Shown here piece after piece: positions 78-13,299 of a DNA stretch of 13,299 bases. The notes beneath the pieces were generated by a model, which saw nothing but the letters and a program-made list of their open reading frames with translations, searched no databases and had not been told where the DNA came from. The DNA is from Elusimicrobiota bacterium. GTDB taxonomy: Bacteria; Elusimicrobiota; Elusimicrobia; Elusimicrobiales; UBA9959. Each line of letters opens with the position of its first letter. The stretch's first letter is position 1. The stretch covers positions 1-13,299 of the forward strand of contig JBAXKK010000072.1 in the NCBI GenBank assembly GCA_037137395.1, given 5' to 3'. The position numbers were made by a program, and so were the translations under genes.

Positions 78-166
78 AGGATTAAGCGGTAAGTTATAAG
101 GATTAAGCTAGACCTTAATCCCTGCTCCCTTTAATCCTTAATCCTTAATTCTTAATACTTACTTCT
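78..166. repeat. Heptamer inverted-repeat element 1 (GGATTAA/TTAATCC family), fusA-tuf spacer
   Basis: Left arm ggattaa gcggtaa gttataa ggattaa g (79-107). Right arm ctttaat ccttaat ccttaat tcttaat acttact (129-163). An extra ccttaat lies at 113-119. Confidence 0.9.
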
Positions 167-173
167 TTGCTCA

Positions 174-2270
174 CTAAACGGCTTCGGCCGCGGCCTGGGT
201 CCGTTTTTCAATAACGCCCTTCGCGACATTCGCCGGCACTTCTTCGTAGTGACTGGGCTCCATGCTGAAAGAAGCGCGGCCCTGCGATATAGATCTTACC
301 ACCGTGGCGTATCCGAACATTTCTGACAGCGGCACGGTGCCGCGCACAAAACGCGCGTTGCCCCTGTTGCCCATTTCAGATATCTTGGCGCGTCTTGAGT
401 TAAGATCGCCGATGACGTCGCCCACGTTAGCTTCCGGAGTTGTGACATCAACCTTCATAATGGGTTCCATCAGATACGGACCGGCCTTACGGCAGCCGTC
501 TTTGAACGCCATAGCGCCGGCTATCTTGAAAGCGATTTCGGAAGAGTCAACATCGTGGTAGGAACCGTCAAAAAGCGTAACCTTCACGTCCACCACGGGA
601 AATCCGGCCAGCACGCCGGAGTCCATAGCCTCTCTGCAGCCCTTTTCCACGGCTGGAATGAATTCCTTGGGAACGCGGCCTTGCTTGATGCCATCCACGA
701 ACTCAAAACCTTTACCCATCGTCTGCGGCTCAACCTTAAGCCACACATGGCCGTACTGTCCGCGACCGCCGGACTGCCGGATAAATTTACCTTCTATATC
801 GACAGCCCTTTTGATGGACTCGCGGAAAGCAACCTGCGGGCGACCCACATTGGCCTGCACATTGAATTCGCGTTTAAGACGATCCACGATGATATCCAGA
901 TGAAGTTCGCCCATACCGGAGATGATGGTCTGGGAGGTCTCCTCGTCAGTCTTGATCCTAAAAGTCTGGTCTTCCTCGGCAAGGCGGCCCATCGCTATAC
1001 CCATCTTCTGCTCGTCCTCTTTGGACTTGGGCTCGATGGAGATTGAGATGACCGGCTCGGGGAAATTCATACCCTCAAGCATTATTGGGCGCTCGGGATC
1101 ACAAATGGTCTCGCCCACAGTTGCGCTCTTGATGGCCACGGTGGCGGCGATGTCGCCTGCACTGATCTCTTTAATCTCTTCGCGCTTGTTGGCGTGCATC
1201 CGCAGGATACGGCCTATGCGCTCCTGTGTATTCTTGCGTGAGAAGTGCACGGTATCGCCCGGTTTAAGGGTGCCTGAATACACGCGGAAGAATGTCAGCT
1301 TGCCCACGAAAGGGTCAGGCTGGATCTTAAACAGCAGCGCGCAGAAAGGATCTTTCGGGTCGGCTTTGCGCACGACCTCTTCGCCGGTGTGGGGATCGGT
1401 GGCGGTCAGGGGCGGGACATCCAGCGGGGACGGCAGGTAGTCAATAATAGCGTCCAGCATCGGCTGCACGCCCTTGTTTTTATAGGAGGAACCGCACAGC
1501 ACAGGGAAGAACTTTGTGGTGAGCGTGCCGCGGCGGATGGCGGCCTTCAGTTCCGCCTCGGTAAAGTTGGTGTCGCCGGCCAGGTACTTCTCCATGATAT
1601 GCTCGTCAAAATCGGCCAGTTTTTCCACAAGCAGGTCACGATACTTCTTTGAAATCTCCACCATATCGGCGGGGATCTCGACCTCGTCGAAATGAGCGCC
1701 CAGGTCGTCGCCGACCCAAATCAGCGCCTTCATCTTCACAAGGTCAACAAGGCCCTTGAAAGTTTCGGTCACGCCTATCGGAATCTGTATAGGCGAGGCG
1801 TTAGCGCCCAATTTCTCTATTATGGAATGAACGCACATAAAGTAGTCAGCGCCTATGCGATCCATCTTGTTAATGTAGGCCACGCGGGGCACATGGTAGC
1901 GGTCGGCCTGGCGCCACACTGTCTCAGACTGCGGCTCCACGCCCTGAACTCCGTCGAAAACTGTTACGGCGCCGTCCAGAACGCGCAGGGAACGCTCAAC
2001 CTCGGCGGTGAAATCAACGTGTCCGGGGGTGTCGATAATATTGACGATATGCTCGCGCCAGGTGGTGCTGATGGCAGCCGCGGTGATGGTTATACCGCGC
2101 TCGCGCTCCTGCGGCATCCAGTCCGTGGTAGTATTGCCGTCGTGCACCTCTCCGATCTTATGTGACTTTCCGGTGTAATAAAGTATGCGCTCGGTGGTCG
2201 TGGTTTTGCCGGCGTCAATGTGAGCGATAATGCCGGTGTTGCGTACCTTAGTTAAATCAAAGTCTGCCAT
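174..2270 (-). CDS. fusA: Elongation factor G (698 aa from the probable start MADFDL)
   Basis: Motifs [44 protein letters not shown] and SYHDVDSS. Start placed at ATG 2270 (AGGA at 2279-2282) rather than 2297, which lies inside a repeat arm. Confidence 0.98.
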
Positions 2271-2282
2271 AGTGTTTTTCCT

Positions 2283-2373
2283 AGATTCCGGATTCAAGAT
2301 TTAAGATGGAAGATTAGAGGTGTTTCCTTAATTCCAGTATCCCCAAATCTTGAATCTTGAATCTTAAATCTTA
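2283..2373. repeat. Heptamer inverted-repeat element 2 (GATTCAA/TTGAATC family), rpsG-fusA spacer
   Basis: Left arm gattccg gattcaa gatttaa gatggaa gattaga (2284-2318). Right arm aatcttg aatcttg aatctta aatctta (2346-2373). Confidence 0.9.
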
Positions 2374-2387
2374 AATTTTCTCCCTTG

Positions 2388-2867
2388 TTACCAGCGGTAA
2401 TGGGCGAAAGCGCGGTTGGCTTCGGCCATCCTGTGGGCGTCCTCTCTTTTCTTGAAAGCGGTGCCCTCTTTCTTGAAAGCCAGGAGAAGTTCTTCGGCCA
2501 GGTGCACATGCATAGGCGCGCCCTTGCGGTCGCGCGCGGCATTGAGTATCCAGCGCATCGCCAGCGAAGAGCCGCGGCTGGGCTTCACTTCTATCGGCAC
2601 CTGGTAGTTGGCGCCGCCGACGCGGCGGGCCTTCACTTCCACCATGGGGCGGACGTTCTCAATAGCCTTGGTAAGCACCACAAGCGCGTCTTCCTTGGTT
2701 TTTTCCTTTAAGATATCCATCGCTCCGTAGAGGATGCTTTCAGCGGCAAGCTTCTTGCCCTGGAAATTTATTTTATTCACGAACCTGGAAACCAGCACGG
2801 AATTATATCTGAAATCCGGCGGCGGGAGTTCCCTTCTGTCGCGAGGTCTTAAACCTTTTCTTGGCAT
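2388..2867 (-). CDS. rpsG: 30S ribosomal protein S7 (uS7)
   Basis: MPRKG start, [15 protein letters not shown], and C-terminal [19 protein letters not shown] at 2876-2879. Confidence 0.98.
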
Positions 2868-2904
2868 ACATTTATCTCCAATTGACTAATTTAAATATTT
2901 CGTT

Positions 2905-2978
2905 CAGTGGCTAGTGATTAGTGGGTAGTGGTTAAAATATAAGGAACTCCTTCACTAACCACTATTCACTCACCACTG
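2905..2978. repeat. Heptamer inverted-repeat element 3 (TAGTGGT/ACCACTA family), rpsL-rpsG spacer
   Basis: Left arm cagtggc tagtgat tagtggg tagtggt (2905-2932). Right arm ttcacta accacta ttcactc accactg (2951-2978). Confidence 0.9.
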
Positions 2979-2984
2979 CTGTTG

Positions 2985-3380
2985 TTACTTCTTCGCTTCC
3001 GTCTTTCCTGCCTTTGGGCGCTTGGCGCCGTAAAGCGACCGGCCCTGCCTGCGGCCTTCAACTCCGGACGCGTCCAGCGCGCCCCTGATAATATGGTACC
3101 TGCAGCCGGGAAGGTCTTTTACTTTCCCGCCCCTGACCAGAACAATGGAGTGTTCCTGGAGGTTGTGACCTACTCCGGGGATGTAGGCGGTGACTTCCTG
3201 CTTGGAGGTCAACTTGACCCTGGCTACTTTCCTGAGGGCGGAGTTGGGTTTCTTGGGGGTCGTGGTATAGACCCTGGTGCAAACGCCCCTTCTCTGCGGG
3301 CAAGACATCAACGCGGGCGCCTTGCTGAACTTCCTTAAAGATTCTCTTCCGTGCCGTATGAGCTGATTAATTGTTGACAT
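2985..3380 (-). CDS. rpsL: 30S ribosomal protein S12 (uS12), 131 aa
   Basis: MSTINQLIR start, [33 protein letters not shown] and KDLPG motifs. Start placed at ATG 3380 because it matches the family N-terminus (M-x-T-I-N-Q-L). Confidence 0.98.
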
Positions 3381-3389
3381 AATTTCCAA

Positions 3390-3474
3390 AGGGTGTAGGT
3401 TATAAGATGGAGGGCAGAGTAATAAGCAATAACTTTCTTAAACCCTGATCCCTGAACCCTAAACCCTGAACCCT
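3390..3474. repeat. Heptamer inverted-repeat element 4 (AGGGTTY/RAACCCT family), rpoC-rpsL spacer
   Basis: Right arm aaaccct gatccct gaaccct aaaccct gaaccct (3440-3474). Degenerate left arm agggtgt aggttat aagatgg agggcag (3390-3417). Confidence 0.85.
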
Positions 3475-3478
3475 ATTT

Positions 3479-7672
<4,194 letters not shown>

Positions 7673-7706
7673 GGTTGTTTTCTCCATTCAACTGTTGCGT
7701 AAGGGC

Positions 7707-7792
7707 AGATTCAAGATTCCGGATTCAAGATTTAAGATTAAGAAGGCAACTTCTGCCAATCTTGAATCTTAAATCTTGAATCTTTAATTCTA
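7707..7792. repeat. Heptamer inverted-repeat element 5 (GATTCAA/TTGAATC family), rpoB-rpoC spacer
   Basis: Left arm gattcaa gattccg gattcaa gatttaa gattaag (7708-7742). Central mini-hairpin ggca-acttc-tgcc (7745-7757). Right arm aatcttg aatctta aatcttg aatcttt aattcta (7758-7792). Confidence 0.92.
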
Positions 7793-7796
7793 ACGC

Positions 7797-10700
7797 CTAG
7801 TTCACAGCCTTGGCCGCCGCTTTCTTCTTGGCCTTTTCCTTCACGCCTTCAGCGCGGGCGGTTTCCTCTTCGGCCTTGATCAGGTCGACATCGAGGGCAA
7901 GGGCCTGCAGTTCCTTAACAAGCACCTTGAAGGATTCAGGCACGCCGGGCTGCGGCGGGAAATCACCTTTGATGATAGCTTCATACATCTTGGTCCTGCC
8001 GGAGAAGTCATCTGACTTGACGGTAAGCATCTCCTGCAGGGCGTAAGCGGCGCCGTAGCCTTCCAGTGCCCAGACTTCCATTTCGCCGAAGCGCTGGCCG
8101 CCGAAAAGGGCCTTGCCGCCCAACGGCTGCCTGGTGATGAGGCTGTACGGGCCCGTGGAGCGGGCGTGCACTTTATCTTCCACCAGGTGGATGAGCTTCA
8201 GAATGTACATGTAGCCTATCGTCACTTTTTCGTGGAACTGTTCGCCGGTCCTGCCGTCGTACAGCGTGATGCGGCAATAATCGTCGGGGAGATATTCCTC
8301 CGCCACGCCCTGCCGCTTCAAATGATCCTTGGCCAGCTGCACCATCTGGATGACGCCGGGTTTTTCCGCGTTCGGATGCGCGGAAAGGTCGTTTACGATC
8401 TCAGAAACCGTGATATCGGAGCGTTTTTTCTTGCGCTTGTCTTCCCAGTATTTCCAATAGCCGGGGTTATCCTCGGCCGCGCCGTCAAAGACCGGACAGA
8501 TCATCTGTGTGTTCAACTGTTTGCCGGCCCAGCCCAGCATGGTCTCAAGGATCTGGCCGATGTTCATACGGGACGGGACGCCCAGCGGCGAAAGCACCAT
8601 ATCCACCGGCGTGCCGTCGGGCAGATACGGCATATCTTCTTTCGGCAGAATACGGGCAACCACGCCTTTATTACCATGGCGGCCCGAGAGCTTATCTCCC
8701 ACGCGCAGCCGGCGCTTAAGGGCTATATACACCTTAACCACTTTATTGACGGTGACGGGCAGTTCGCCGGTGGCTTTCAGCAGCTCTTTTTCCCTGGCGT
8801 ACTTGTCCTTGATCTTTTTTTCCATCAGCTTATAAAACTCTTCAATGTCGGAGCCTTTTTTCTCGTCCTTCATGGCTTCCTTGCGGAAGTTTTTAAGGGC
8901 CTCGAGATTCTCCTTCATCTCTTCGTTGATCTCGTCCATGCGCCGCTTTTCTTCGGGCTTGGAGAGCTTCTCGCGGCGAACGAATACGCGGGTGCCTATA
9001 ATTTTGCCGTTTACGCCGGGCGGCACGCGCAGCGATGTGTCGGTAACATCTTCCGCTTTTTTGCCGAAGATGACCTTAAGCAGCCTTTCCTCGGGGGAAA
9101 GCTGCTGCTCGCCCTTAGGGGAAACCTTACACACCATTATGTCGCCGGGGCGGACCATGGTTGACGGCACTACAACGCCTTCGGAATCTATGTGCTCGAG
9201 GGCGTCGGAACCGACATTCGGAATATCGCGGGTGATCTCTTCCGGTCCAAGCTTCGTATCGCGGGCTTCCACTTCAAACTCTTCGATGAAGATGGAGGTT
9301 AGCGCGTCTTCTTCAACGAGCTTTTCGGAGACAAGGATGGCGTCTTCGTAGTTAAAGCCTTCCCAGCTCATGAACGCGACCAGCAGATTTTTGCCAAGGG
9401 CCAGCTGTCCGTCGCCGGTGGCGGGGCCGTCGGCTATAACATCGCCCTTCTTAACATAATCGCCGCTTCTGACGGTAGGCTTCTGATTTACGCAGGTATC
9501 CTGGTTGGACCTTCGGTATTTAATAAGGTGATAAAGATCGGGATCCTTGGAATTATCCGACTTTATTGAGATCATCTCTCCGGAGGAATAGATGACGCGG
9601 CCGCTTGTGCGCGCTGTAACGCAGGCGCGCGAATCTCTGGCGATGGCCGACTCCATTCCGGTCCCTACCAGCGGAGGTTCGGTCACCAGCAGAGGCACGG
9701 CCTGGCGCATCATGTTGGAACCCATCAGCGCGCGGTTGGCGTCGTCGTGTTCAAGGAACGGCACGCAGGCTGCCGAGATGGAAACCACCTGCATCGGGGA
9801 CACATCCATGTAGTTGACATCGCTGGAATCCACGAACACATACTCGTCCTTGGCACGGCCGTACACCCGGTCGGAGGAGAGACGTCCGCTGTCTATAGGA
9901 GTGTTGGCCTGGCCGACGAAAATGTCGTCTTCAAGGAAAGCGGTCAGGTATTCAACCTCATCCGTCATTTTCTTTGATGAGACCTTCCGGTAGGGCGTTT
10001 CGATAAGGCCGTACTGGTTAACCTTGGCGTACGCGGCCAGAGAAACGATAAGGCCGATGTTCGGGCCTTCGGGTGTTTCGATGGGACAGACGCGGCCGTA
10101 ATGGGTATAGTGCACATCGCGGACCTCGAAGCCCGCGCGCTTTCTGTTAAGACCACCGGGCCCGAGGGCCGAGAGGCGGCGCTTGTGCGTCAGTTCGGCC
10201 AGCGGGTTGATCTGGTCCATGAACTGCGAGAGCTGGGAAGTGCCGAAGAACTTCCTCATGATAGCCACCACGGGCGCGGCGTTAACCAGCGTGCGCGGGG
10301 TGATGGTTTTGTCTTCCTTATTCATGCGGTCGCGCACGTTGCGCGAGATCTGGACCAGCGCCACGCGGATCTGGTTCTCAAGAAGTTCGCCGATGGAACG
10401 CACGCGCCTGTTGCCCAGGTGGTCGATGTCGTCCACTTTATACTCGAATTTCTGCCCTTTATAATCGAAGCCGGGCGCGCCTGAATTCATCGCCATTAGA
10501 TACTTCACGGTGACGATAATATCTTCTATGCAGATATTGCGTTTGTTCTCGGCGGGCACTTTGAATTTTTTATCCTGCCTGGCGAGCTCTTCATACACGG
10601 GGGTGAGCTTTCTGGCGGCCTTGTAACGCCCGACTATGGAAAAGTCGTAGCGGCGCAGGCTCTTGAAAAGTATGTTGTCAAGATATTCGTCGGCCTGTTC

Positions 10701-11678
10701 CTTGACGATAAAGTCCTGACCCCGCATCTTCTTATAGATTTCGTAGCGGGCCTCGGCGGCGCTCTTGGGCTGGTTCTTACCTTCCAGCGCCAGAATGATA
10801 CCGGGGTTGTCCTCTTTGGGACTGCCTTTTATCAGGCGGACCTTGGTGATCTTGCGCTCAAGCATGATCTTCACGGTCTTTTCATCAAGGGGCTGGGCAG
10901 CTTTCTCTTCCAGATTCCAGACGACCTCTCCGGTCTTGGTGTCCACGATGTCTTCTATGGCGTAGTGGCCGACGATATTGGCGGCGTTATCCGCGGTGAC
11001 GGCGGCGTCAACGGAGGGATAAAAGATCTGGAGAACTTCGGCGTTGGTCTCGATGCCGGCAGCCTTAAGGAACGTGGTCGCGAGAATCTTTTTCTTGCGG
11101 TCAAGCCTCACCCACAGGACATTGTCCAGGTCAAATTCAAATTCCACCCAGGCGCCGCGATACGGAATAATGCGGGCGTAATAAAGCGATTTACCCAGTA
11201 CGGACTGCTTTTTCTCGTCATCATCTTCAAAGATTATGCCGGGAGAACGATGCAGCTGGCTGACGACAATGCGCTCGGCGCCGTTGAAAATAAAGGAACC
11301 GGTATCGGTCATCAGGGGGAGGTCGCAGAGCGTGACATCCTGGTCGATGATGTGCTTAAGTTTGCCGCTCTCCTGTTTGGTGCTGAGCGAAAGGAAGGCT
11401 TTTAGCGGAGCCGCGTAGGTGCCGCCGCGAACCAGCGCCTCTTCAGGGCTGTGATATTTGGGAGTGCCGAGTTCAAATTTAAGATAGTCCAGAACCATGG
11501 AACCGTCGGCCGACTCTATCGGAAACACGTCGACAAATGAGGCCTGGAGGCCCTGTATTTTTCGCTGTTCCGGCTCCTTGTCAAGCTGAAGGAACCATTC
11601 GTAAGACTGCTTTTGCATGTCCAGCAGGTCGGGTACTTTGAGGATTTGGGATATACGGGAGAAGTTAAGTTGTTTCAT
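7797..11678 (-). CDS. rpoB: DNA-directed RNA polymerase subunit beta (1293 aa)
   Basis: Motifs SQLSQFMDQ...THKRRLSALGPGG, CPIETPEGPNIGL, GDKLSGRHGNKG and GGQRFGEMEVWALE. Start placed at ATG 11678 (MKQLNFSRI) with SD GAGGTGA at 11681-11687; the track's extension to 11756 runs through a structured leader. Confidence 0.98.
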   Translation of the reverse strand: MKQLNFSRISQILKVPDLLDMQKQSYEWFLQLDKEPEQRKIQGLQASFVDVFPIESADGSMVLDYLKFELGTPKYHSPEEALVRGGTYAAPLKAFLSLSTKQESGKLKHIIDQDVTLCDLPLMTDTGSFIFNGAERIVVSQLHRSPGIIFEDDDEKKQSVLGKSLYYARIIPYRGAWVEFEFDLDNVLWVRLDRKKKILATTFLKAAGIETNAEVLQIFYPSVDAAVTADNAANIVGHYAIEDIVDTKTGEVVWNLEEKAAQPLDEKTVKIMLERKITKVRLIKGSPKEDNPGIILALEGKNQPKSAAEARYEIYKKMRGQDFIVKEQADEYLDNILFKSLRRYDFSIVGRYKAARKLTPVYEELARQDKKFKVPAENKRNICIEDIIVTVKYLMAMNSGAPGFDYKGQKFEYKVDDIDHLGNRRVRSIGELLENQIRVALVQISRNVRDRMNKEDKTITPRTLVNAAPVVAIMRKFFGTSQLSQFMDQINPLAELTHKRRLSALGPGGLNRKRAGFEVRDVHYTHYGRVCPIETPEGPNIGLIVSLAAYAKVNQYGLIETPYRKVSSKKMTDEVEYLTAFLEDDIFVGQANTPIDSGRLSSDRVYGRAKDEYVFVDSSDVNYMDVSPMQVVSISAACVPFLEHDDANRALMGSNMMRQAVPLLVTEPPLVGTGMESAIARDSRACVTARTSGRVIYSSGEMISIKSDNSKDPDLYHLIKYRRSNQDTCVNQKPTVRSGDYVKKGDVIADGPATGDGQLALGKNLLVAFMSWEGFNYEDAILVSEKLVEEDALTSIFIEEFEVEARDTKLGPEEITRDIPNVGSDALEHIDSEGVVVPSTMVRPGDIMVCKVSPKGEQQLSPEERLLKVIFGKKAEDVTDTSLRVPPGVNGKIIGTRVFVRREKLSKPEEKRRMDEINEEMKENLEALKNFRKEAMKDEKKGSDIEEFYKLMEKKIKDKYAREKELLKATGELPVTVNKVVKVYIALKRRLRVGDKLSGRHGNKGVVARILPKEDMPYLPDGTPVDMVLSPLGVPSRMNIGQILETMLGWAGKQLNTQMICPVFDGAAEDNPGYWKYWEDKRKKKRSDITVSEIVNDLSAHPNAEKPGVIQMVQLAKDHLKRQGVAEEYLPDDYCRITLYDGRTGEQFHEKVTIGYMYILKLIHLVEDKVHARSTGPYSLITRQPLGGKALFGGQRFGEMEVWALEGYGAAYALQEMLTVKSDDFSGRTKMYEAIIKGDFPPQPGVPESFKVLVKELQALALDVDLIKAEEETARAEGVKEKAKKKAAAKAVN

Positions 11679-11701
11679 CGTCACCTCGTTAGTGGTTGGA
11701 C

Positions 11702-11832
11702 TACACTTAAGTCTTGGCCGCAGGAAATACAGATAGCAGATAATCCCGACGGACATTGCGTCCGCCGGGATAAATCTACGGCCTTCCTACATTACTGTCG
11801 TAATTAAGACTATTATTTCAGTTTCCGGTGTA
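11702..11832 (-). promoter_or_regulatory. Candidate structured rpoB 5' leader (nested stems)
   Basis: mRNA-sense pairings: UACAC/GUGUA, AGUCUU/AAGACU, side hairpin AUUAC-GACA-GUAAU, GUAGGAA/UUCCUGC, GUAGAU/AUCUGC, and a 12-bp AUCCCGGCGGAC/GUCCGUCGGGAU stem with a GCAAU loop. Confidence 0.6.
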
Positions 11833-11839
11833 TACATCG

Positions 11840-11942
11840 AGAAGCACAGCCATCCGGCAACTCAGCCATTCAGCAGTCAACAATCTTAAGACTAGACTGC
11901 CTTACCTCTAAACGGCTTTGCATCCGGACAGGCTTTGCCTCT
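11840..11942 (-). other. Long irregular RNA hairpin just downstream of rplL
   Basis: Nested mRNA-sense pairings: AGAGGCA/UGCUUCU, AGCC/GGCU, UCCGG/CCGGA, AGCCGUUU/GAAUGGCU, GCAGUC/GACUGC, and UAGUC-UUAA-GAUUG. Confidence 0.6.
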
Positions 11943-11952
11943 TATATTAAAG

Positions 11953-12351
11953 TTACTTCAGTACGACGACGCCGCCGGCTTCGGTAAGCCTCTTGTTCAT
12001 GTCGTCAGCGGTTTTCTTGTCGACGTTCTCTTTTACAATCTTAGGGGCGCCTTCAACCAGATCCTTGGATTCTTTTAAACCCAGGCCGGTGAGTTCCCTG
12101 ACAACTTTGATGACGCCGATCTTTTTGGCCGGGTCGGATATGGCTTTGAGTTCGACGGTGAATTCGGTCTTTTCCTCGGTGGCGACGGCGGCGGCGCCGG
12201 CGGCGGGGGCGGCGGCCATGGCCATGCCCATAGCGGGGGCGGCCTTCACGCCGAATTTCTCCTCGATACCCTTAACGAGGTCGGAAAGTTCCATCACCGT
12301 GAGGGTGGAAATGGCTTCAACTATCTGGTCTTTATTGAGTTTTTCTGACAT
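11953..12351 (-). CDS. rplL: 50S ribosomal protein L7/L12 (bL12)
   Basis: [19 protein letters not shown], an Ala-rich hinge, EEKTEF, and [33 protein letters not shown] at 12360-12365. Confidence 0.98.
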
Positions 12352-12374
12352 GTTATTGTCTCCTTGTAGTCATG

Positions 12375-12443
12375 AATAGCCCGCTTAACAGCAGTCACTC
12401 GCCGTTTGTTAACCGGTTTATCCCCTAAACTTCGGGGGCTATC
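12375..12443 (-). promoter_or_regulatory. Candidate three-way-junction RNA upstream of the rplL ribosome-binding site
   Basis: P1 GAUAGCCC/GGGCUAUU; P2 CCG-(AA)-GUUUA/UAAAC-CGG; P3 UUAACA/UGUUAA with an inner CGG/CUG stem. Confidence 0.5.
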
Positions 12444-12468
12444 AGGATTTTAGTTAATTACTGCAAAA

Positions 12469-13008
12469 TTATTTTGCTTCGGAAGATTTCTTCTCTCGCA
12501 CGGCCTCAACGGCGTAAGCGAGGTTAGTGGTCGGAGCTTCAAGAACCCACCTGATCTGAGCCAGGTTAGAGTAAAGAACCCCGGCCAGCTGCGTAAGCAG
12601 TTCGGCCTTGGTTCCGATCTTGGAAAGTTTTTCCAGATCCGCGGGCGTGAGCCAGCGGCTTGAAGTAAAACCACCCTTTATCTTTAAAGCGGGATTTTCC
12701 TTGGCAAAAGCCAGGAGGGCCTTGGCGGCCTTGGCGATGTCGTCGGCGCTGTCGATGGTGATAACGCCGGTAGGACCCTTAGCCACGCGGGCGTCTTCGG
12801 ACTTAAGCGCGGCGTTAGCCAGAGCGTGCGATACAACGGTGTTACGCATTACTTTAAATTTGGATTTAGCGGGGCGCAGATTCTCTTTAAGGGTATTGAT
12901 ATCCTTAAATTTGAGGCCCTGGAACGAGGCAAAAAACACATCTTTCGCCTTAAACTCGTCGCCGAGCTTCTTAGCGAGTTCGATTTTATCGTTTTTGCTG
13001 AGTTTCAT
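12469..13008 (-). CDS. rplJ: 50S ribosomal protein L10 (uL10)
   Basis: 179 aa directly upstream of rplL. Contains FQGL...FKVMRNT, GPTGV and LKIKGG segments matching L10 motifs, plus a C-terminal amphipathic helix region. Divergent but positionally unambiguous. Confidence 0.93.
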   Translation of the reverse strand: MKLSKNDKIELAKKLGDEFKAKDVFFASFQGLKFKDINTLKENLRPAKSKFKVMRNTVVSHALANAALKSEDARVAKGPTGVITIDSADDIAKAAKALLAFAKENPALKIKGGFTSSRWLTPADLEKLSKIGTKAELLTQLAGVLYSNLAQIRWVLEAPTTNLAYAVEAVREKKSSEAK

Positions 13009-13013
13009 AAAAA

Positions 13014-13113
13014 GATAAGTAGTAAGTTGTAAGGATTAAGTGGTAAGTTGTCAGCGATAATAAGAAGTAAGAAATTTTAAAAACTTAATCCTTAACACTT
13101 AATCCTTAATTCT
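13014..13113. repeat. Heptamer inverted-repeat element 6 (GGATTAA/TTAATCC family), 5S rRNA-rplJ spacer
   Basis: Left arm gataagt agtaagt tgtaagg attaagt ggtaagt tgtcagc (13014-13055). Right arm acttaat ccttaac acttaat ccttaat (13083-13110). Confidence 0.9.
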
Positions 13114-13163
13114 GGTCCTTTGAAAATTATTGCGCGATTCTAAAAACCTCATGTGATTTGTAA

Positions 13164-13283
13164 GACCGGCAGCGACCTACTCTGCCAACACCGGATTGGG
13201 TGTTAGTACCATCGGCCCTGGAGCCCTTAACTGCCGTGTTCGGAATGGGAACGGGTGTTACCTCTCCGGAATAACCACCGGTC
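13164..13283 (-). rRNA. rrf: 5S ribosomal RNA
   Basis: Reverse complement contains the 5S hallmarks CACCCGUUCCCAUUCCGAACACGGCAGUUAAG, GCCGAUGGUAC and AGAGUAGG. Terminal helix GACCGGUGG/CUGCCGGUC; about 120 nt. Ends uncertain by a few nt. Confidence 0.97.
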
Positions 13284-13299
13284 TAACAAATCACACGAA

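What the first reader, a model, noticed from the sequence alone, without database searches (positions are those of the whole stretch)
78..13113. Heptamer-array inverted-repeat elements occupy six of eight spacers of the core ribosomal/RNAP operon
Seen: elements at 78-166, 2283-2373, 2905-2978, 3390-3474, 7707-7792 and 13014-13113 share one architecture. Each has 4-6 degenerate 7-nt units, a spacer of about 15-30 nt, then 4-5 reverse-complement units, always with the G-rich arm first and the C-rich arm second. Four different unit families are used (GGATTAA, GATTCAA, TAGTGGT, AGGGTTY), so architecture is conserved while sequence is not. Known: heptameric STRR repeats are described from filamentous cyanobacteria, and REP/BIME elements fill spacers in Proteobacteria, but neither matches this layout well. 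Inference: a dispersed non-coding system (protein-bound RNA/DNA module, or empty non-autonomous mobile cassette) tolerated or selected even in highly expressed essential operons. From memory, and unverified, similar heptamer arms flank four-helix-bundle (23S rRNA IVP-like), GxxExxY and DUF559 genes in other genomes. These could be cargo-less versions.
Basis: partly seen in the sequence, partly recalled or inferred. Interest (0 to 1): 0.85.

Follow-up and report, generated by a model that had tools for sequence, protein, structure and literature searches.

The report
Gene-less heptamer hairpins after stop codons
Six gaps in the ribosome/RNA-polymerase operon of an uncultured bacterium hold hairpin repeats built from 7-base units; they are fast-changing members of a genome-wide repeat class that is known but unexplained, they are related to small cassettes carrying a 'four-helix-bundle' gene, and many share one fixed 12-base centre whatever their arms.

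Summary
All six elements are real. They belong to a genome-wide class: 332 of 1350 spacers carry an arm, against 4-15 after shuffling. The layout is already described (Xanthomonas inverted heptamer pairs, Geobacter paired sites, heptamers in Beggiatoaceae ribosomal operons), but its function is unknown. The elements are not conserved regulators. In relatives the same spacers are bare or hold another unit family, and G-U versus A-C mismatches show no RNA-strand bias. This genome has one intact armed cassette and a truncated one. At 7 of 11 sites where relatives carry a cassette it has a gene-less element, with different arms. GxxExxY and DUF559 cargo are not supported here. New here: an invariant 12-bp quasi-palindromic loop core (window 2941-2952) shared by unrelated 7- and 8-nt arm families. 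It reaches 7-59 exact copies in 8 of 61 family genomes, all PF05635-positive. Best reading: non-autonomous mobile hairpins that lodge at stop codons of transcribed operons and are tolerated; the mobilising enzyme is unknown. This scan has reported the class and the cassette link before, on this genome and many others.

The parts
78..166 (.). Element 1, fusA-tuf spacer: arms about 78-110 and 113-167, same unit family as element 6; begins a few bases after the fusA stop in transcription direction
2283..2376 (.). Element 2, rpsG-fusA spacer: arms 2283-2315 and 2345-2376, same unit family as element 5; loop holds a degenerate copy of the 12-bp core near 2317-2329
2905..2978 (.). Element 3, rpsL-rpsG spacer: arms 2906-2934 and 2951-2978; most significant fold (z -6.6)
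2941..2952 (-). Invariant quasi-palindromic loop core AAGGAGTTCCTT (5-bp inverted halves around 2 nt), shared by gene-less elements with unrelated arm families
3390..3474 (.). Element 4, rpoC-rpsL spacer: clear arm 3441-3474 next to the rpoC stop, degenerate partner about 3390-3417
7707..7792 (.). Element 5, rpoB-rpoC spacer: arms 7707-7743 and 7758-7788
13014..13113 (.). Element 6, 5S rRNA-rplJ spacer: arms 13016-13048 and 13083-13110, ending just before the rplJ start

Best explanation
The six elements are gene-less, non-autonomous members of a family of small mobile foldback elements. The gene-carrying members hold a four-helix-bundle gene (PF05635/TIGR02436) between the same kind of inverted short-unit arrays. 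Shown: they are multicopy, sit at stop codons of co-directional genes, avoid divergent (promoter) spacers, are gained, lost and replaced between close relatives, and share arm families with cassette genes. Inferred: they are tolerated in essential operons because the first arm supplies stop codons in all frames and the downstream start signal is left intact; slippage and arm-to-arm template switching vary and homogenise the units; empty forms spread on their own, one lineage of them carrying the fixed 12-bp core. The mobilising chemistry is not shown. My preferred route (about 0.35 given mobility) uses an RNA intermediate: the Avd-like pentamer binds the arms of the transcribed hairpin and a reverse transcriptase acts in trans. 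A single-strand-DNA, REPIN-like route is nearly as likely.
For: Position: 97 of 138 first arms start within 15 nt of the upstream stop, 29 of them inside the gene end. 117 of 228 first arms have stops in all three frames, against 41 shuffled. Arms occur in 291 of 1062 co-directional and 17 of 163 divergent spacers (Fisher p 9e-7). Turnover: each operon spacer carries an array in only 3-10 of 26-35 genomes, and families differ at the same spacer within the genus. Cassette link: G000:C76:12003-12350 is a TIGR02436 gene (closest solved structure 2gsc, five chains) between inverted arms of this genome's commonest unit family. G001 has it too, while G004 and G006 have a bare spacer of about 20 nt there. 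41 of 56 cassette genes have arrays on both sides, 30 of those 41 matching, and protein clades tend to share arm units across genera. At 7 of 11 G000 spacers orthologous to a relative's cassette there is a gene-less array (background 17%). A 5'-truncated cassette survives at C8 about 18500-18690. Genomes with three or more strong PF05635 genes have arrays in 33 of 43 operon spacers; genomes with none in 8 of 95 (my tally; kin are not independent). Core: within one mismatch in 18 of 332 arm spacers against 5 of 1018 others; 35 of 40 sites read in relatives adjoin arrays of several unrelated 7- and 8-nt families; all 8 genomes with 7 or more exact copies are among the 21 with a strong PF05635 gene, and none of the other 40 exceeds 2 copies.
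Against: No mobilising enzyme was identified. IS110 is missing from G000 and from four other core-rich genomes. Y1 transposases occur in 49 of 61 genomes and are not flanked by these arms. The only RT in G000 belongs to a DGR-like locus. There is no target-site duplication signal. Near-identical copies are rare: 4 of 332 spacers match another over 80% of their length, so there is no recent burst. G000 has about 300 element-bearing spacers but one intact gene. No cargo gene was seen in these eight spacers in 35 relatives. The core lies near only 3 of 57 cassette genes, and only 1 of the 6 window elements has it intact. Several PF05635-rich genomes (G010, G012, G033) have 0-1 exact cores. Most protein pairs above 50% identity still differ in arm unit (11 of 88 match).
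Confidence: 0.6

Rival explanations
1. Host-selected RNA modules: long hairpins just after stop codons that act as RNase III sites, exonuclease barriers or translation insulators and tune gene ratios within operons, as REP RNAs do.
For: They abut stop codons in transcribed spacers. Four of six fold significantly. They are twice as frequent after genes with translation-machinery-like codon use (97 of 405 top quartile against 47 of 405 bottom). RNase III is present. The related Coxiella IVS stem, with heptamer repeats, is cut by RNase III (PMC4990558, passages).
Against: G-U and A-C mismatches are equal (96:94 in 54 pairs; 48:47 in 35 pairs). The sense strand is only marginally more stable (42 against 31, p 0.08). 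22 of 74 pairs have non-matching arms. Core orientation is random relative to transcription (10:8). Congeners run the same operon with 15-30-nt bare spacers. The codon score also separates native from foreign genes.
Confidence: 0.2
2. Mutational by-products made in place: polymerase slippage expands a stop-codon-containing 7-mer and template switching copies it into an inverted arm, with no mobile unit.
For: Units are degenerate and of variable number (mostly 4-6). Whole-element identity between loci is low and there is no target duplication. The G-U/A-C symmetry points to DNA-level homogenisation. Slippage at 7 nt is the published default idea (as summarised in PMC4692102 and PMC4679880).
Against: The same few unit families recur at many loci and across genera. 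An invariant 12-bp core recurs up to 59 times per genome. A whole arm-gene-arm unit is present or absent at one site within the genus.
Confidence: 0.12
3. DNA sites for a host regulator or nucleoid protein, as proposed for the Geobacter paired sites, with the palindromic core as an operator.
For: The core has a dyad shape (5-2-5; a spacer of 2 gives 14 sites, against 1-10 for other spacings) and lies in either orientation. The arms are convergent tandem arrays.
Against: The elements are depleted in divergent promoter spacers. The core is enriched in only 8 of 61 family genomes and reaches at most 3 copies in every genome sampled outside this family. Occupancy is not conserved at orthologous sites.
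Confidence: 0.08

Closest known systems
Xanthomonas GGGAATC heptamer repeats in convergent inverted pairs (Rehm et al. 2015, PMC4692102; passages and Discussion read)
   Same: About four 7-nt units per arm, inverted pairs, mostly intergenic between co-directional genes, close to the upstream stop codon, under-represented between divergent genes, function unresolved.
   Different: One unit family with G4 potential there; many families here, most without G-tracts. Positions were largely kept between the two Xanthomonas species; here they turn over within a genus. The passages read mention no cargo gene or loop core.
Geobacter metallireducens class 1-3 'putative global regulator binding sites' (PMC2700814; methods and supplement-legend passages only, supplement files not opened)
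   Same: Several classes of 3-5 tandem 7-9-nt units, paired on opposite strands at variable distance.
   Different: Interpreted as regulator sites, with IS elements at fixed distances. Unit sequences differ. The unopened supplementary alignments may show loop cores or neighbouring four-helix-bundle genes.
Beggiatoaceae TAACTGA direct repeats (MacGregor 2015, PMC4679880; first two parts and passages read)
   Same: Intergenic heptamer arrays of 2-6 units, including sites inside ribosomal protein operons and upstream of fusA.
   Different: Almost all single direct arrays next to start codons, one unit only, not inverted pairs.
ORF-bearing 23S rRNA intervening sequence (Coxiella burnetii IVS with S23p; PMC4990558, passages read)
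   Same: A PF05635-type ORF in the loop of a terminal stem, with 3-4 tandem heptamers upstream of the ORF; same protein family as the G000 cassette.
   Different: Lies in rRNA and is excised by RNase III. The elements here lie in mRNA spacers, mostly lack the ORF, and processing is untested.
REP/REPIN elements with RAYT transposases (recalled; PMC3116915 and PMC3733652 seen as search listings only)
   Same: Abundant intergenic palindromic non-autonomous elements near stop codons, without obvious target duplication.
   Different: Arms here are period-7/8 arrays of unrelated families, and no Y1 transposase gene examined is flanked by them.

Membership tests
Inverted heptamer-array pairs (Xanthomonas/Geobacter type) | Tandem arrays of about 4-5 units of 7-8 nt in convergent inverted pairs | tested here: met
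Inverted heptamer-array pairs (Xanthomonas/Geobacter type) | Intergenic, close to upstream stop codons, rare between divergent genes | tested here: met
   342 of 365 arms intergenic
Inverted heptamer-array pairs (Xanthomonas/Geobacter type) | The published unit sequences and G-quadruplex G-tracts | tested here: not met
   The leading unit families differ; of the window families only element 4's has three-G runs
Four-helix-bundle (PF05635) armed cassette | PF05635/TIGR02436 gene between the arms | tested here: not met
   Window loops are 15-40 nt with no gene; met for G000:C76:12003-12350
Four-helix-bundle (PF05635) armed cassette | Arm families shared with cargo-bearing cassettes | tested here: met
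   Elements 2 and 5 match cassette locus L055 arms (E to 6e-8); element 3 matches L041 weakly (E 0.005); element 4 matches L127 weakly, in a flank that holds an adjacent empty element; elements 1 and 6 match only L063, not a stand-alone cassette
23S rRNA intervening sequence (IVS) | Located inside an rRNA gene | tested here: not met
   All six lie between genes; element 6 is downstream of the 5S match
23S rRNA intervening sequence (IVS) | Excised from the transcript by RNase III | not testable with these tools
   RNase III gene present; no RNA holder listed
REP/REPIN-RAYT | Cognate Y1 (RAYT) transposase gene flanked by the same repeats | tested here: not met
   The four G000 Y1 genes are flanked by other, longer repeats; 0 of 12 Y1 loci from relatives have a period-7 array over threshold
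MITE / IS-derived miniature element | Target-site duplication and near-identical copies | tested here: not met
   Flank word sharing equals the reversed control in 81 pairs; 4 of 332 spacers near-identical
Curated RNA family (Rfam) | Match at gathering score | tested here: not met
   Only 5S rRNA and a chance miRNA-precursor hit at 27.5 of 100 bits
Cyanobacterial STRR | Published STRR unit sequences and layout | not tested
   Recalled only; the paper search gave no defining paper

The most novel reading that the evidence does not exclude
A minimal, undescribed mobile-element system. The Avd-like four-helix-bundle pentamer reads about five 7-nt units per arm, one per subunit, each protein clade having its own unit. 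With an enzyme supplied in trans (a reverse transcriptase or a host recombinase) it plants hairpins at stop codons of highly transcribed genes. The invariant 12-bp dyad core is the cis-acting priming or crossover site, around which arms of different families are exchanged. This would explain bacterial heptamer repeats and give PF05635 a function.
Probability: 0.15. Interest if true: 0.85.

Novelty: new variant of a known kind. Interest (0 to 1): 0.58.

Why it matters
Heptamer repeats in bacterial spacers have been noted repeatedly without a mechanism, and PF05635 proteins have a structure but no function outside the DGR protein Avd. This locus gives three states of one site class (bare, empty element, gene-bearing cassette), protein clades paired with arm units, and one invariant core. 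That turns both questions into direct binding and mobility assays. It also warns against reading such hairpins in core operons as conserved regulators.

Tried and rejected
RNA evidence: no RNA holder listed; laid contigs cannot show processing, and the joints in X4 come from a related organism. Shine-Dalgarno relic in loops: 8 of 58 against 4.8 shuffled, not significant. Start-codon relics in loops: 13 sense against 12 antisense of 38. Protein relics: a profile of the cassette proteins hit only 2 of 332 arm spacers, the intact C76 gene and the C8 fragment. IS110 and Y1 transposases as mobilisers: no co-distribution and no flanking arms. GxxExxY and DUF559 as cargo in this genome. Intrinsic terminators: 14 found against 19 in shuffles, one weak hit inside element 5. 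Target-site duplication. The arm-plus-core pattern in viral contigs: 0 matches. G001's copy of the operon: not found with these queries. A finer classification of arms into named families was not completed; arm matching was measured without named families, where orientation by purine content mislabels one large family, so its left/right counts are noisy. Gene calls come from my own simple caller (it misplaced the rpsL and rpsG starts), so spacer counts are approximate. One mis-paired site (L043) and the self site were dropped before the 7-of-11 count. Literature: no paper linking PF05635 cassettes to intergenic heptamer pairs in general, or naming the core, turned up; the library lacks most subscription papers.
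Full report
Setting. The window is G000:C72 (2.70 Mb, 174 contigs, 98.9% complete, 7.7% contaminated by the tool's figures). It carries, on the minus strand, 5S rRNA, rplJ, rplL, rpoB, rpoC, rpsL, rpsG, fusA and the start of tuf (gene names from recalled sequence features). All 39 hits of an arm-plus-core pattern in 185,579 species genomes are titled Elusimicrobia, and earlier notes on this genome say the same, so I infer that phylum.

Observation. All six elements are at the stated places. Four fold well above shuffles and two weakly. The two spacers without arrays, rplJ-rplL and rplL-rpoB, hold other conserved sequence. The class is genome-wide. Period 7 gives 358 arrays against 5-60 for periods 4-12. 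A motif scan found 365 arms, 342 of them intergenic, against 8 in the reversed genome, with a fixed order of arms (85 of 98 against 10 of 86 neighbours within 120 nt). A motif-free scan found arms in 332 of 1350 spacers against 4-15 in shuffles. Arms occupy 299 of 1760 co-directional spacers (17%). Six of eight is above that (binomial p 5e-4, or 7e-3 for spacers of 40 nt or more; window chosen after the fact), while the S10-spc region has 5 of 23.

Anatomy. In transcription direction the first arm hugs the stop codon (97 of 138 within 15 nt, 29 starting inside the gene). It usually has stops in all three frames (117 of 228 against 41 shuffled). Arms are mostly 4-6 units, with a median loop of 15 nt. 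Ribosome-site words before the next start are as frequent with an arm as without (79 of 181 against 355 of 771). Divergent spacers are avoided (17 of 163 against 291 of 1062, p 9e-7). The two arms match in 52 of 74 pairs (21 expected by permutation), so 22 pairs are hybrids. G-U and A-C mismatches are equal, which gives no sign of selection on the RNA strand.

Relatives. I read this operon in 35 other genomes. Each spacer has an array in only 3-10 of 26-35 genomes (the threshold admits a few false positives). Within the genus the rpoC-rpsL spacer is 17 nt in G002 and the rpsL-rpsG spacer 24 nt in G003, and other congeners carry different unit families there. Some genomes in other genera are as loaded as G000 (G031 8 of 8, G037 7 of 8, G016 6 of 8); many have none. 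Relatives also have arrays in the two spacers that are bare here. No cargo gene was seen in these spacers. So the operon is a permissive, repeatedly occupied target, and the elements are not conserved parts of it.

Link to four-helix-bundle genes. G000 has one intact PF05635/TIGR02436 gene (C76:12003-12350), 1e-30 to the five-chain structure 2gsc. It lies between inverted arms of the genome's commonest unit family, and its first arm supplies the upstream gene's stop. G001 shares it; G004 and G006 have a bare spacer. A 5'-truncated cassette with 8-nt downstream arms follows a gene end on C8. In 61 family genomes, 21 have a hit of 90 bits or more (my count). Of 56 such genes, 41 have arrays of period 6-9 on both sides, 30 of them matching. 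Supported protein clades often share a unit across genera, although most pairs do not (shared ancestry alone could give this). Where a relative's cassette could be mapped to a G000 spacer, 7 of 11 spacers hold a gene-less array and 4 do not. By eye none of the seven has the arm family of the relative's cassette, and loops hold no gene remnants as a rule. Empty elements are therefore kin of the cassettes that occupy the same favoured spacers, not in-place deletion scars. GxxExxY and DUF559 cargo are not supported in this genome.

The core. The loop of element 3 holds a 12-bp dyad (2941-2952). Within one mismatch it occurs in 18 of 332 arm spacers against 5 of 1018 others. There are 11 exact copies in G000 against 1 for the reversed control, 59, 45, 38, 35 and 30 in G016, G008, G031, G044 and G037, and 9 and 7 in G043 and G007. 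All eight genomes are PF05635-positive; the 40 genomes without a strong hit have at most 2 copies; outside this family no sampled genome exceeds 3. Of 40 sites read in relatives (regions chosen around known core hits), 35 adjoin arrays, against 126 of 2000 random G000 positions. The arms belong to several unrelated 7- and 8-nt families while the core does not change. In G000, 19 of 34 sites within one mismatch pass the same threshold. The core lies in either orientation (10:8), is near only 3 of 57 cassette genes, and is intact in one window element and degenerate in another. It marks one lineage of empty elements, not the whole class.

Mechanism. Shown: multicopy, stop-codon-anchored, transcription-spacer-biased, fast turnover, kinship with PF05635 cassettes. 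Inferred: non-autonomous mobility and tolerance through built-in stops (0.6). The homologous DGR protein Avd is a positively charged pentamer similar to S23 proteins, all five protomers of which contact an RNA stem-loop (bioRxiv 10.1101/2023.10.23.563531, passages). The Coxiella IVS has heptamers before its S23p ORF and is cut out by RNase III (PMC4990558, passages). These make an RNA route plausible, and G000 has RNase III and one RT. Against it: no mobiliser co-distributes with the elements, there is no target duplication, near-identical copies are few, and no RNA-strand bias is seen. Rivals are host-selected RNA modules (0.2), in-place slippage (0.12) and DNA regulator sites (0.08).

Known and new. 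The layout is in print: Xanthomonas inverted heptamer pairs near stop codons (PMC4692102, passages and Discussion), Geobacter paired 7-9-nt sites (PMC2700814, passages; supplements not opened and may bear on loop cores and neighbours), and heptamer arrays inside Beggiatoaceae ribosomal operons (PMC4679880, two parts and passages). None of the text I read gives a mechanism. My searches found no paper generalising the PF05635 link or naming the core. This scan has noted the class and the cassette link before: 99 findings held my search words, including notes on this genome. I tested the link here independently. Verdict: real, a new variant of a known but unexplained repeat class, interest 0.58.

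Noticed in passing
window 12352-12468 (rplJ-rplL spacer): A conserved three-way-junction RNA just upstream of rplL, seen in nearly all relatives read, including another family. In 8 aligned copies, 7 of 15 predicted pairs show compensatory changes. No Rfam hit. Possibly an L10-leader-like autoregulatory site lying after rplJ rather than before it (recalled comparison).
   Followed up: partly
window 13009-13299; L028, L033, L038: rplJ-rplL-rpoBC-rpsL-rpsG-fusA-tuf lies directly downstream of the 23S-5S rRNA genes in this family and nearby in G019. The 5S gene is enclosed by a 21-nt inverted repeat (13149-13169/13278-13298). Co-transcription with rRNA is untested.
   Followed up: partly
G000:C4:35198-35527, C17:9668-9997, C46:6146-6475, C47:4631-4954: Four Y1 (RAYT-like) transposase genes, each flanked by several copies of its own 15-30-nt repeat in both orientations; a separate REP-like system.
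   Followed up: partly
G000:C52:11795-14803: DGR-like locus: RT, an AAC-rich template-like repeat and an Avd-like gene without heptamer arms.
   Followed up: no
L049 (G044), L127 (G008), L153 (G010); fragment at G000:C4:24697-24816: Four-helix-bundle domains fused to the N-terminus of 370-440-aa proteins; in L049 and L127 a complete empty element with a near-intact core lies just upstream.
   Followed up: no
L035 rplL-rpoB spacer (G010, 2.2 kb) and L106 rpsL-rpsG spacer (G033, 6 kb): Foreign-looking ORFs inserted inside the core operon, including a 909-aa and a 298-aa putative surface protein pair in G033.
   Followed up: no
L249-L263: GxxExxY genes of relatives are flanked by 8-9-nt arrays, a parallel class of armed cassette.
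   Followed up: partly
G000 arm spacers, e.g. C27 near 23760, C8 near 18120: Other short GC-rich words recur inside arm spacers, suggesting further loop cores or nested small repeats.
   Followed up: no
window 11679-11952 (rplL-rpoB spacer): Partly conserved hairpins within the genus, possibly an attenuator; no Rfam hit.
   Followed up: no
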